Source: Escherichia coli
GTDB taxonomy: Bacteria > Pseudomonadota > Gammaproteobacteria > Enterobacterales > Enterobacteriaceae
Reading direction: 5' to 3' (one strand)
NCBI RefSeq assembly: GCF_041886205.1
Contig: NZ_CP169029.1
DNA: 64,000 bases
How positions within the stretch are numbered: position 1 is the first letter of the stretch; every line of letters starts with the position of its first letter. Shown here piece after piece: positions 1 through 3,000 of the stretch. Made by a program: the position numbers.

Positions 1-3000
1 GGTCGAAAAACCGTTCACTCCGACACTTGCGCAGGCGAAAGAGCTGTTTGCGCTGGCGAAAAGCAAAGGGCTGACCGTCACGCCATATCAGAATCGTCGC
101 TTTGATTCCTGCTTCCTGACGGCGAAAAAAGCGATTGAAAGCGGCAAGCTGGGAGAGATTGTCGAAGTGGAAAGCCATTTTGACTATTACCGCCCGGTGG
201 CAGAAACCAAACCTGGGCTGCCGCAGGATGGCGCGTTCTATGGCCTTGGTGTGCATACGATGGACCAGATTATTTCTCTGTTCGGTCGCCCGGATCACGT
301 CGCTTATGACATCCGCAGCCTGCGTAATAAAGCCAATCCTGACGACACCTTTGAAGCGCAACTGTTTTATGGCGACCTGAAAGCCATCGTCAAAACCAGC
401 CATCTGGTGAAAATCGATTATCCGAAATTTATCGTTCACGGTAAGAAAGGTTCGTTTATTAAATACGGTATCGACCAGCAGGAAACCAGCCTGAAGGCTA
501 ATATTATGCCGGGCGAACCAGGATTCGCGGCGGATGATTCGGTCGGTGTGCTGGAGTATGTCAATGACGAGGGCGTGACGGTCAGAGAAGAGATGAAGCC
601 GGAGATGGGCGATTACGGGCGCGTTTATGATGCGTTGTACCAAACCATCACCAACGGTGCGCCAAATTACGTCAAGGAATCTGAAGTTCTTACCAATCTG
701 GAAATCCTTGAACGCGGATTTGAGCAAGCCTCTCCCTCCACAGTGACTCTCGCGAAGTAAGTTTGATGGCCCCTCGAATAGTTCAATTTTTTTGAACAGA
801 GGGGTCAATTTTCACCCTCTATCATCCCAGGCAGATCGGGTCCACACTAAGCCCATCGAAATCATTCAGGGGGCGAATACAAATGATCTACTTACGCAAA
901 GCAAATGAACGTGGTCATGCAAATCATGGCTGGCTGGACTCCTGGCATACTTTCTCTTTTGCCAACTACTACGACCCGAACTTTATGGGCTTCTCCGCGC
1001 TGCGCGTGATTAACGACGACGTGATTGAAGCAGGGCAGGGCTTCGGCACTCACCCGCATAAAGATATGGAAATTTTGACCTACGTCCTGGAAGGTACTGT
1101 TGAACATCAGGACAGCATGGGCAATAAAGAGCAGGTTCCGGCGGGTGAGTTCCAGATTATGAGTGCGGGTACGGGTATCCGTCACTCTGAGTACAACCCA
1201 AGCAGCACCGAGCGTCTGCATCTGTATCAGATCTGGATCATGCCTGAAGAAAACGGCATTACACCGCGTTATGAACAGCGTCGCTTCGATGCCGTACAGG
1301 GCAAACAGCTGGTGCTCTCGCCGGATGCGCGAGATGGTTCATTGAAAGTGCATCAGGATATGGAACTGTATCGTTGGGCGTTGCTGAAAGATGAGCAGTC
1401 GGTACATCAGATTGCCGCTGAACGTCGCGTCTGGATCCAGGTGGTGAAAGGCAATGTCACCATTAACGGCGTGAAAGCCTCGACCAGCGATGGTCTGGCA
1501 ATCTGGGATGAGCAGGCAATCTCCATCCATGCGGATAGCGACAGCGAAGTGTTATTGTTCGATTTGCCGCCGGTTTAAAGCTCAACGGCATCTTTGAAGC
1601 CTGACTTTTTGCAGGCTTCCACGCTCGCTCCGGTCGCGTGCTGATGTACGCTTCCGGGGTTTTGCCGTGTCGTTAGCACAATGCGATGCAATTGATTTAG
1701 TGTATATCTAATAATTGTAAACAAGCACTGTTTTCCCCGGGAAGGTTCTGATGCGTCCGTGTTAAACTAAGAGAATCTATCTCTTTTGTACCTTCAGGAC
1801 GATGAAAAAGAAAAGACCCGTACTTCAGGATGTGGCTGACCGTGTAGGCGTGACCAAAATGACGGTCAGCCGCTTTTTGCGTAACCCGGAGCAGGTTTCC
1901 GTCGCTCTACGCGGCAAGATTGCCGCCGCTCTTGATGAACTGGGTTATATTCCCAATCGTGCGCCCGATATCCTCTCTAACGCCACCAGCCGGGCGATTG
2001 GCGTCCTGTTACCTTCTCTCACCAACCAGGTTTTCGCGGAAGTATTACGCGGAATCGAAAGCGTCACCGACGCGCACGGTTATCAAACCATGCTGGCGCA
2101 CTACGGTTATAAACCGGAAATGGAGCAAGAACGCCTCGAATCCATGCTCTCATGGAATATCGATGGACTGATCCTCACCGAACGTACTCACACGCCACGC
2201 ACCTTAAAGATGATTGAAGTGGCGGGGATCCCGGTGGTGGAGTTGATGGACAGCAAGTCGCCGTGCCTCGATATTGCCGTCGGTTTTGATAACTTTGAAG
2301 CGGCACGCCAGATGACCACCGCCATTATTGCTCGCGGGCATCGCCACATTGCTTATCTCGGCGCACGTCTCGACGAACGTACTATCATCAAACAGAAGGG
2401 ATACGAACAGGCGATGCTGGATGCAGACCTGGTGCCATATAGCGTGATGGTTGAGCAATCTTCTTCTTACTCTTCCGGTATTGAACTGATTCGCCAGGCG
2501 AGGCGGGAATATCCGCAGCTGGATGGCGTGTTCTGTACTAATGATGACCTGGCGGTCGGCGCGGCGTTTGAATGCCAGCGTCTGGGGTTAAAAGTTCCTG
2601 ACGATATGGCGATTGCCGGTTTCCACGGTCATGACATTGGTCAGGTGATGGAACCACGGTTGGCGAGCGTACTGACGCCGCGTGAGCGGATGGGCAGTAT
2701 TGGCGCTGAACGCCTGCTGGCGCGTATTCGTGGCGAATCTGTGACACCGAAAATGTTAGATTTAGGTTTCACCTTGTCACCGGGCGGATCTATTTAAGCC
2801 CACAAATTTGAAGTAGCTCACACTTATACACTTAAGGCACGGATGGATATTGCTTCTGATATTGTCCGGTCGGACAATGTTACCGATAACAGTTACCCGT
2901 AACATTTTTAATTCTTGTATTGTGGGGGCACCACTTTGAGCACGACTAACCATGATCACCACATTTACGTCTTGATGGGCGTATCGGGCAGCGGCAAATC

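What the first reader, a model, noticed from the sequence alone, without database searches (positions are those of the whole stretch)
2877..2905. Matching GntR operator palindromes upstream of both gntK and gntT
Seen in sequence: ATGTTACC-GATAACAGTTACCCGTAACAT upstream of gntK and ATGATACGGGTAACAT (reverse complement ATGTTACCCGTATCAT) at 40182-40197 upstream of gntT share the core GTTACCCGTAAC. This is consistent with the known GntR regulation of both gluconate transporters and shows the regulatory wiring is intact next to the inserted operon.
Basis: partly seen in the sequence, partly recalled or inferred. Interest (0 to 1): 0.15.

Follow-up and report, generated by a model that had tools for sequence, protein, structure and literature searches.

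The report
Known GntR operators at gntK, gntT
These short palindromes are the well-characterised binding sites where the E. coli gluconate repressor GntR switches off the gluconate kinase/transporter genes; they are real, intact and conserved, but textbook rather than new.

Summary
The window is E. coli chromosome, 100 % identical to strain 6EVA. The gntT copy reads GTTACCCGTATC.

There are four sites: two overlapping upstream of gntK and two upstream of gntT. They are the only matches in 64 kb to the published GntR consensus at up to 3 mismatches (0.41 expected by chance). A weight matrix built only from edd and idnK/idnD sites outside the window also ranks them as its top four hits.

All four sites are identical to K-12. 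Two of the 16-mers have been used experimentally as gluconate-responsive GntR operators. The sites are near-invariant across 80 Enterobacteriaceae gntK loci. They are also untouched in a ~15 %-divergent gntT-upstream allele carried by 920 E. coli genomes.

GntR here is intact and belongs to the LacI family. One gntK operator covers the transcription start, and one gntT operator overlaps the -10 hexamer. The neighbouring insertion is a PsyrT/PsyrA defence pair. It begins after the gntU stop and touches neither promoter.

Verdict: already known, low interest.

The parts
1802..2797 (+). gntR, encoding the LacI-family gluconate repressor that reads the operators
   Evidence: It is annotated gntR in the identical record. 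It matches K-12 GntR at 330 of 331 residues, the one difference being G209D outside the helix-turn-helix (HTH) DNA-binding motif. Pfam finds LacI HTH PF00356 plus Peripla_BP_1 PF00532.
2804..2825 (+). CRP site of the gntKU promoter (AAATTTGAAGTAGCTCACACTT), centre 2814.5
   Evidence: The same 22-mer is listed as the E. coli gntKU CRP site in PMC2395238. RegulonDB places CRP at -69.5 of gntKp (PMC3531196). It is about 85 % conserved across 80 Enterobacteriaceae loci.
2850..2855 (+). Inferred -35 hexamer of gntKp (TTGCTT)
   Evidence: It is 97-100 % invariant in 80 loci and lies 17 bp upstream of GACAAT. The assignment is inferred, not taken from a start-site mapping paper I could read.
2873..2878 (+). 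Inferred -10 hexamer of gntKp (GACAAT); the start site derived from it is about 2884
   Evidence: It is 93-100 % invariant. CRP at -69.5 with the site centred at 2814.5 gives +1 = 2884, six bases after this hexamer.
2877..2892 (+). gntK operator 1, ATGTTACCGATAACAG (about -7 to +9)
   Evidence: It has 3 mismatches to the consensus and an external-matrix score of 18.1. It is identical to K-12. The exact sequence was used as a functional GntR site (PMC10450161). It is 99-100 % invariant across genera apart from the junction base 2891.
2890..2905 (+). gntK operator 2, CAGTTACCCGTAACAT (about +7 to +22), overlapping operator 1 by 3 bp (13-bp offset)
   Evidence: It has 2 mismatches and scores 16.5. 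It is invariant except the junction base 2891 (A or T) and the last base 2905 (T in only 9 % of genera). The 13-bp overlapping gntKU pair is cited as experimentally functional (PMC4052901). The 30-mer is exact in 5349 of 5426 E. coli genomes.
2936..4807 (+). gntK-gntU, the regulated operon (gluconokinase and low-affinity gluconate transporter)
   Evidence: Annotation; a terminator-like hairpin at 4819-4846 follows gntU.
40239..40254 (-). CRP-like site of the gntT promoter (TATGAccaaccTCTCA on the - strand), centre 40246.5
   Evidence: Each half has one mismatch to TGTGA/TCACA (read). It lies in a 56-bp block that is invariant even in the 15 %-divergent allele. gntTp is stated to have a CRP site. 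The -71.5 position is inferred.
40206..40211 (-). -35-like hexamer of gntTp (TTCTCA)
   Evidence: Promoter scan: TTCTCA, 18 bp, TATCAT. It is invariant in all 7 E. coli alleles aligned.
40182..40197 (-). gntT operator 1, ATGTTACCCGTATCAT; its last six bases are the -10-like hexamer TATCAT
   Evidence: It has 1 mismatch and scores 20.2. It is identical to K-12. The same 16-mer, taken from Peekhaus & Conway 1998, gave GntR repression and gluconate de-repression in a cell-free system. It is invariant in six other genera or lineages and in the divergent allele.
   Evidence: It has 3 mismatches and scores 19.6. It is identical to K-12. It is retained in Salmonella, Kosakonia, Klebsiella and Shimwellia with a spacing of 141-146 bp and is invariant in the divergent allele. 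gntTp is stated to have two GntR sites.
38705..40021 (-). gntT, the regulated high-affinity gluconate transporter
   Evidence: Annotation; Pfam GntP_permease at 629 bits.

Best explanation
These are the four chromosomal operators through which the gluconate repressor GntR controls the GntI genes. GntR is a LacI/GalR-family dimer encoded at 1802-2797.

Without gluconate, GntR binds 16-bp pseudo-palindromes of the form ATGTTAC-NN-GTAACAT. At gntKU, two such sites offset by 13 bp form a 29-bp composite dyad. This dyad covers the end of the -10 hexamer, the start site and the first ~22 transcribed bases, so a bound repressor excludes RNA polymerase or blocks open-complex formation. At gntT, one site overlaps the -10 hexamer. 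A second lies 141 bp downstream in the leader and strengthens repression, either by cooperative binding or looping or as a roadblock to transcription.

Gluconate releases GntR. Each promoter then fires only with cAMP-CRP bound about 70 bp upstream.

What is shown here: the sequence identity to tested operators, the statistical specificity of the matches, the positions relative to conserved promoter elements, the intact repressor gene, and deep conservation. What is inferred: the exact start sites, the steric mechanism, and how the paired sites cooperate.
For: - **Specificity.** The four sites are the only consensus matches at up to 3 mismatches in 64 kb, against 0.41 expected. They are also the top four hits of a matrix built from edd and idnK/idnD sites outside the window.
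- **Identity to tested operators.** All four are identical to K-12. ATGTTACCGATAACAG and the consensus drive gluconate-responsive GntR binding (PMC10450161). ATGTTACCCGTATCAT confers GntR repression and gluconate relief in a cell-free system.
- **Published regulation.** PgntK and PgntT are repressed more than 5-fold by GntR (PMC13386637). gntTp has two GntR sites plus CRP. Gluconate abolishes GntR binding to gntT (PMC2230225). The 13-bp overlapping gntKU pair is cited as functional (PMC4052901).
- **Repressor.** GntR is intact and LacI-type.
- **Promoter geometry.** TATCAT lies inside gntT operator 1. The conserved TTGCTT-17-GACAAT elements and CRP at -69.5 place +1 at 2884, inside gntK operator 1.
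- **Conservation.** Window 2873-2904 is at least 99 % invariant in 80 Enterobacteriaceae, apart from the junction base 2891 (61 %) and one -10 position, 2875 (93 %). The gntT operators are conserved across genera. They carry 0 of the 57 differences in a 15.8 %-divergent E. coli allele.
Against: - No binding or expression data exist for this strain.
- I could not read the primary footprinting and start-site papers (Izu 1997; Porco 1997; Peekhaus & Conway 1998; Tsunedomi 2003). They are not held, so site positions relative to +1 are derived indirectly.
- Two LacI-type dimers centred 13 bp apart should clash in the canonical binding mode. Ravcheev et al. call this geometry unresolved.
- The spacing between the two gntT operators varies non-periodically among genera (141, 144, 146 bp). 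That does not favour a strictly phased repression loop.
Confidence: 0.95

Rival explanations
1. The same palindromes act mainly as targets of the paralogous regulator IdnR (GntH), not GntR. On this view they link the GntI genes to idonate/5-ketogluconate metabolism.
For: GntR and IdnR are closest paralogues with overlapping DNA specificity and share binding sites (PMC2395238; PMC4052901, which cites Tsunedomi 2003 on GntH negatively controlling GntI genes). The idnK/idnD site ATGTTACGCATAACGT matches the same motif.
Against: gntR is adjacent and intact. GntR alone represses through these exact sequences in cell-free and mammalian systems. A gntR deletion de-represses PgntK and PgntT. IdnR cross-talk adds to GntR control rather than replacing it, and idnR is not in this window.
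Confidence: 0.03
2. The palindromes work at the nucleic-acid level, as an RNA or DNA hairpin (5' stabiliser, attenuator or terminator) in gntR read-through or gntKU transcripts, rather than as protein-binding sites.
For: The 29-mer is a composite inverted repeat with 12 of 14 self-complementary pairs, and most of it is transcribed if +1 is 2884.
Against: The 29-mer folds weakly as RNA: -3.9 kcal/mol, z = -1.5, with 18 of 200 shuffles folding as well. The leader from 2884 is less stable than its shuffles, and the 16-mers at gntT do not fold. No terminator-like site was found at 2700-3000. No Rfam family matches anywhere in the window. Internal mismatches are conserved rather than compensated. 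The motif recurs at unrelated promoters, edd and idn.
Confidence: 0.01
3. The resemblance between the gntK and gntT sequences is a chance match of short AT-rich palindromes.
For: The exact shared run is only 10 nt, and the claimed 12-mer core is not actually shared.
Against: Four sites are seen against 0.41 expected, and none of 100 shuffles reached the observed number. An independent matrix gave 0.06 expected hits at the observed scores. All hits fall within about 500 bp of relevant intergenic DNA. The sites are near-invariant across genera and in a highly divergent allele.
Confidence: 0.005

Closest known systems
E. coli K-12 GntR operators of gntKU and gntT (GntI system; Izu et al. 1997, Porco et al. 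1997, Peekhaus & Conway 1998, Tsunedomi et al. 2003)
   Same: The sequence is identical at all four sites, with the same flanking promoter elements, the same CRP sites and the same repressor apart from one residue.
   Different: Nothing differs in the regulatory elements. The strain differs only by a few substitutions elsewhere in the intergenic regions and by a PsyrT/PsyrA insertion after gntU.
GntR sites at edd-eda and idnK/idnDOTR (other members of the regulon)
   Same: They share the 16-bp motif: ATTTTACCGGTAACAT and TTGTTACGCGTAACAA at edd, and ATGTTACGCATAACGT at idn. edd, like gntT, has two well-separated sites, 222 bp apart.
   Different: They lie at different loci outside this window. 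The central dinucleotide varies (CC, CG or GC), and no 13-bp overlapping pair is present.
LacI/GalR-family operators in general (LacI O1/O2/O3, GalR OE/OI, PurR)
   Same: All are pseudo-palindromic sites of 16-20 bp read by a dimer with an N-terminal HTH. Repression comes from overlap with the core promoter, auxiliary operators lie at a distance, and a sugar-derived ligand induces.
   Different: GntR (331 aa) is much shorter than LacI (360 aa), whose C-terminal helix mediates tetramerisation; I did not align the two. Any looping would therefore need another mechanism. The 13-bp overlapping double site is a GntR-typical arrangement that canonical LacI-DNA structures do not explain.
GntR family of winged-helix regulators (Pfam PF00392; e.g. 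B. subtilis GntR, FadR)
   Same: They share only the name and the physiological role of gluconate-responsive repression.
   Different: The E. coli protein has a LacI-type HTH and a periplasmic-binding-protein fold, with no PF00392 match. Its operator motif is unrelated to those of the GntR family.

Membership tests
E. coli GntR (LacI/GalR-type) operator | A 16-bp pseudo-palindrome matching the published consensus ATGTTACCCGTAACAT | tested here: met
   The four sites have 1, 2, 3 and 3 mismatches, and there are no other matches at up to 3 mismatches in 64 kb. The consensus is quoted in PMC10450161.
E. coli GntR (LacI/GalR-type) operator | Recognised by a motif model derived from independent GntR-regulon promoters | tested here: met
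   A matrix built from edd (two sites) and idnK/idnD (one site) ranks the four sites 1-4, with scores of 16.5-20.2. The null maximum was 13.2 ± 1.9.
E. coli GntR (LacI/GalR-type) operator | Lies in the promoter or leader of a gluconate-catabolism gene and overlaps core promoter elements | tested here: met
   gntT operator 1 contains the -10-like TATCAT. gntK operator 1 spans the derived +1 at 2884 and the last two bases of GACAAT. Start sites are derived, not read from primary papers.
E. coli GntR (LacI/GalR-type) operator | Sequence identical to operators shown experimentally to bind GntR and respond to gluconate | tested here: met
   Identical to K-12. ATGTTACCGATAACAG was tested in PMC10450161. 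ATGTTACCCGTATCAT was tested in bioRxiv 10.1101/2023.01.10.523462.
E. coli GntR (LacI/GalR-type) operator | The cognate repressor gene is present and intact | tested here: met
   gntR at 1802-2797 matches K-12 at 330 of 331 residues, and the LacI HTH and ligand-binding domains are detected.
E. coli GntR (LacI/GalR-type) operator | Physical binding of GntR to this DNA and release by gluconate in this strain | not testable with these tools
   This needs EMSA, footprinting or reporter assays.
E. coli GntR (LacI/GalR-type) operator | Purifying selection on the site relative to flanking non-coding DNA | tested here: met
   Mean conservation is 0.95 in the operators against 0.71 and 0.52 in the flanks across 80 genera-level loci. 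None of the 57 substitutions in the 15.8 %-divergent E. coli allele fall in the gntT operators.
Operators of the Pfam GntR family (winged-helix, PF00392) | The regulator carries a GntR-type winged-helix domain | tested here: not met
   Pfam finds LacI (PF00356) plus Peripla_BP_1/3/4 only. The shared name is historical.
CRP-dependent (class I) promoter | A CRP consensus site centred about 60-90 bp upstream of +1 | tested here: inconclusive
   The gntK site equals the published CRP 22-mer, placed at -69.5 in RegulonDB. The gntT site is read from the sequence with one mismatch per half, and its -71.5 position is inferred from the -10 hexamer. gntTp is stated to have a CRP site. No binding test was possible.
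Intrinsic terminator or structured RNA element | A stable hairpin beyond shuffled controls, a T-tract, or an Rfam match | tested here: not met
   The fold gives -3.9 kcal/mol with z = -1.5. No terminator-like site lies in 2700-3000. There are no Rfam hits.

The most novel reading that the evidence does not exclude
The gntK element may not be two ordinary operators. It could be a single 29-bp composite dyad, invariant across Enterobacteriaceae, with an A/T-toggling centre and a 30-bp version (14-bp offset) in Yersinia, Brenneria and Pantoea. Such an element would be bound in a non-canonical mode: either two GntR dimers on different faces with local DNA distortion, or one dimer alternating between two registers. 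This would answer the open question raised by Ravcheev et al. 2014 about why LacI-family sites so often pair at a 13-bp offset. My data show strong constraint on both inner half-sites and tolerance of 13 or 14 bp, but they cannot discriminate between binding modes.
Probability: 0.15. Interest if true: 0.35.

Novelty: already known. Interest (0 to 1): 0.07.

Why it matters
It matters little as a discovery. These are among the best-documented operators in E. coli and are already exploited as synthetic-biology parts.

The useful outcomes are three:
- The annotation is corrected to four sites rather than two, and the claimed shared 12-mer differs by one base.
- Gluconate regulation in this strain is shown to be unperturbed by the adjacent PsyrT/PsyrA insertion.
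- The evolutionary footprint is clean across 80 genera-level loci and in a naturally 15 %-divergent E. coli allele, and it delimits the functional bases of both promoters.

The only open mechanistic point is the known, unresolved geometry of the 13-bp overlapping pair.

Tried and rejected
- **Primary papers.** I tried to read Peekhaus & Conway 1998, Porco 1997 and Tsunedomi 2003 by PMID and PMC id.
- **First literature search.** The four-term search found nothing.
- **Promoter guess for gntK.** I first guessed TTGTCC(2862-2867)-17-GATAAC. I rejected it because 2862-2865 is poorly conserved (0.29-0.65), whereas TTGCTT-17-GACAAT is invariant and fits CRP at -69.5. The generic promoter scan missed the gntK promoter entirely, because it is a weak, CRP-dependent one.
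- **Exact 30-mer counts around the gntT operators.** The 64 % and 83 % figures at first suggested operator polymorphism. Alignment showed the variation is confined to the 7-bp flanks.
- **Start-codon adjustments.** My corrections for loci L092 and L093 were wrong. Using position 1001 as the start gives offsets consistent with the other genera.
- **Rivals considered and rejected.** The hairpin/terminator, Rfam-element and chance-match readings were all rejected.
- **Fifth-best matrix hit.** The site at 57354-57369 lies inside hslO and scores within the null range, so I dismissed it.
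Full report
**Observation.** The two strings are present exactly as reported. Window 2877-2905 reads ATGTTACCGATAACAGTTACCCGTAACAT. Window 40182-40197 reads ATGATACGGGTAACAT, whose reverse complement is ATGTTACCCGTATCAT. One detail is wrong. The 12-mer 'core' GTTACCCGTAAC occurs only once in the window, because the gntT copy reads GTTACCCGTATC. The exact shared run is therefore 10 nt.

Searching the published consensus ATGTTACCCGTAACAT with up to 3 mismatches returns four distinct sites and nothing else in 64 kb. Chance expectation is 0.41 matches, and none of 100 shuffles reached the observed number.

**Context.** The window is E. coli chromosome, 100 % identical to strain 6EVA. 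The relevant genes are:

| Gene | Window coordinates | Strand |
|---|---|---|
| gntR | 1802-2797 | + |
| gntK (TTG start) | 2936-3463 | + |
| gntU | 3467-4807 | + |
| gntT | 38705-40021 | - |
| nfuA | 40382-40957 | - |

The gntK sites lie 31-59 bp upstream of the gntK start. The gntT sites lie 161-176 bp and 20-35 bp upstream of the gntT ATG.

I located GntR-type sites at other regulon promoters in K-12, all outside this window. There are two at edd (ATTTTACCGGTAACAT and TTGTTACGCGTAACAA, 222 bp apart) and one between idnK and idnD (ATGTTACGCATAACGT). A symmetrised weight matrix built from these three alone ranks the four window sites first to fourth of about 64,000 positions, with scores of 20.2, 19.6, 18.1 and 16.5. 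The next hit scores 13.6, lies inside hslO, and is within the null maximum of 13.2 ± 1.9. Simulated sequences gave 0.06 hits per window at or above 16.5.

**Comparison with experimentally studied DNA.** Both intergenic regions align to K-12 MG1655 with all four sites identical. The few strain differences fall elsewhere. The published evidence I could read is as follows.
- PMC10450161 used ATGTTACCGATAACAG (= 2877-2892) and the consensus as GntR recognition sites. Binding was gluconate-responsive and was abolished by deleting the site or inserting 2 bp at its centre.
- bioRxiv 10.1101/2023.01.10.523462 used ATGTTACCCGTATCAT (= 40197-40182), taken from Peekhaus & Conway 1998. It showed repression by E. 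coli GntR and relief by D-gluconate in a purified cell-free system.
- PMC13386637 showed that PgntK, PgntT and PidnK are repressed more than 5-fold by GntR, with PgntK the tightest.
- bioRxiv 10.1101/2024.12.09.627516 states that gntTp has two GntR sites and a CRP site.
- PMC2230225 summarises that gluconate, and at higher concentration 6-phosphogluconate, abolishes GntR binding to gntT.
- PMC4052901 cites the gntKU sites as the experimentally validated example of LacI-family 'overlapping sites about 13 bp apart'.

The primary footprinting papers are not held.

**The repressor.** The window's GntR matches K-12 GntR at 330 of 331 residues. The single change is G209D, outside the DNA-binding domain. 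Pfam finds a LacI-type HTH plus periplasmic-binding-protein domains. Despite its name, it is therefore not a member of the Pfam GntR family.

**Promoter anatomy at gntK.** Price et al. list AAATTTGAAGTAGCTCACACTT as the gntKU CRP site. This equals window 2804-2825, centred at 2814.5. RegulonDB places CRP at -69.5 of gntKp, which puts +1 at 2884.

Across 80 distinct Enterobacteriaceae gntK loci, TTGCTT (2850-2855) is 97-100 % invariant. GACAAT (2873-2878), 17 bp downstream, is 93-100 % invariant. I infer these to be the -35 and -10 hexamers, since the hexamer ends 6 bp before 2884. On that basis operator 1 spans about -7 to +9 and operator 2 about +7 to +22. A bound repressor would occlude the start site. 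This last step is inferred.

**Promoter anatomy at gntT.** The scan finds TTCTCA-18-TATCAT (40211-40182, minus strand), with TATCAT forming the last six bases of operator 1. A CRP-like site, TATGAccaaccTCTCA, is centred at 40246.5. That would be -71.5 if +1 is about 40175, which is also inferred. Operator 2 then lies at about +119 to +134 in the leader.

**Conservation across genera.** In the 80-locus alignment, window 2873-2904 is at least 99 % invariant, with three exceptions in or just beyond it. Position 2875 in the -10 hexamer is 93 % conserved. The junction base 2891 is A or T (61 % A). The terminal base 2905 is T in only 9 % of loci and is usually A. Mean conservation is 0.95 in the operators, against 0.71 upstream and 0.52 downstream.

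For gntT, orthologous loci were recovered through GntT homologues. Operator 1 is identical in a 93 %-identical lineage, Kosakonia, Klebsiella, Salmonella diarizonae and Shimwellia. Operator 2 is retained, with an operator 1-operator 2 spacing of 141, 144 or 146 bp.

Pantoea, Yersinia and Brenneria instead carry an overlapping tandem pair with a 14-bp offset. In Yersinia and Brenneria this pair sits between divergently transcribed gntK and gntT-type genes.

**Conservation within E. coli.** The 30-mer covering the gntK pair is exact in 5349 of 5426 complete genomes. The 30-mers around gntT operator 1 and operator 2 are exact in only 3462 and 4496 genomes. This is flank polymorphism, not operator change.

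In 920 genomes the nfuA-gntT intergenic region is only about 84.5 % identical to this window, even though the sampled strains with that allele encode identical NfuA and GntT proteins. In that allele 57 of 360 positions differ. None of the differences falls in operator 1, operator 2 or the 56-bp block from the CRP-like site through the -35 (40205-40260), and the operator spacing is unchanged. Substitutions abut operator 1 on both sides. The flanking coding DNA differs by 2-6 %, all of it synonymous. The intergenic divergence is therefore roughly the neutral rate, and the untouched islands form a genuine footprint.

**Rivals.**
- A hairpin or terminator role is not supported. The 29-mer folds at only -3.9 kcal/mol (z = -1.5), the transcribed leader is less stable than its shuffles, no terminator-like site is found, and no Rfam family matches in the whole window.
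- Chance is excluded.
- Cross-recognition by the paralogue IdnR/GntH is documented, but it supplements GntR control rather than replacing it.

**The 'inserted operon'.** The RecQ-family helicase (4947-7043) and DprA-like gene (6950-8245) match PADLOC PsyrT and PsyrA over their full length, at 1057 and 660 bits. The pair is absent from K-12 and full-length in 1641 of 5426 E. coli genomes. It begins directly after the gntU stop, and a terminator-like hairpin at 4819-4846 follows gntU. It lies about 2 kb downstream of the gntK promoter and does not touch the operators.

**What remains open.** Two LacI-type dimers centred 13 bp apart should clash in the canonical binding mode, and Ravcheev et al. 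explicitly leave this unresolved. My data add that both inner half-sites are as constrained as the outer ones, that the centre base toggles between A and T, and that a 14-bp version exists in other genera. None of this decides the binding mode. The non-periodic variation in gntT operator spacing (141, 144, 146 bp) does not favour a strictly phased loop.

**Verdict.** The feature is real, functional and well understood. The finding is already known and of low interest. It needs the small corrections noted above: four sites rather than two, a shared core that differs by one base, and a LacI-family rather than GntR-family repressor.

Noticed in passing
window 4947-8245 (+): The two-gene insertion between gntU and yhgN (RecQ-family helicase plus DprA-like protein) matches the PADLOC PsyrT/PsyrA defence/toxin-antitoxin models over its full length (1057 and 660 bits). 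It is absent from K-12 and full-length in 1641 of 5426 complete E. coli genomes. It starts immediately after the gntU stop codon.
   Followed up: partly
window 40022-40381 (nfuA-gntT intergenic region); examples L094, L095: 920 E. coli genomes carry an allele of this intergenic region only about 84.5 % identical to the window (57 differences in 360 bp), while the sampled carriers encode identical NfuA and GntT proteins. Flanking coding DNA differs by 2-6 %, all synonymous, so this is an unusually deep haplotype. The differences avoid both GntR operators and a 56-bp block from the CRP-like site through the -35.
   Followed up: yes
L090 (Yersinia) 785-814; L091 (Brenneria) 802-831; L089 (Pantoea) 860-889: In these genera the GntT-type gene is preceded by an overlapping operator pair with a 14-bp offset, instead of two sites about 141 bp apart. 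In Yersinia and Brenneria the pair lies between divergent gntK and gntT. This suggests that a single shared control region may be ancestral to the separate E. coli gntK and gntT operators.
   Followed up: partly
window 2891 and 2905: Within the otherwise invariant gntK double operator, the centre base of the 29-bp dyad toggles between A and T across genera (61 % A). The last base is T only in the Escherichia clade and a few other loci (9 %) and is usually A elsewhere. E. coli operator 2 is therefore closer to the consensus than in most relatives.
   Followed up: partly
window 4819-4846 (+): A 12-bp-stem terminator-like hairpin follows gntU. Its sequence differs from the K-12 gntU terminator region, so the insertion replaced the native 3' flank of gntU.
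   Followed up: partly
window ~52096-52768 (record 4088233-4088905) and ~19946-22935 (record 4118066-4121055): Other annotated accessory-looking genes are present: a RelE/ParE-family toxin plus a NadS-family protein after pckA, and a PstS-family protein plus two hypothetical proteins between glgP and glpD.
   Followed up: no
L004 2578-2593 and 2800-2815 (K-12 edd region): edd also has two GntR-type sites, 222 bp apart. One is upstream in the zwf-edd spacer and one is just inside the edd coding sequence. This echoes the two-distant-operator layout of gntT.
   Followed up: no
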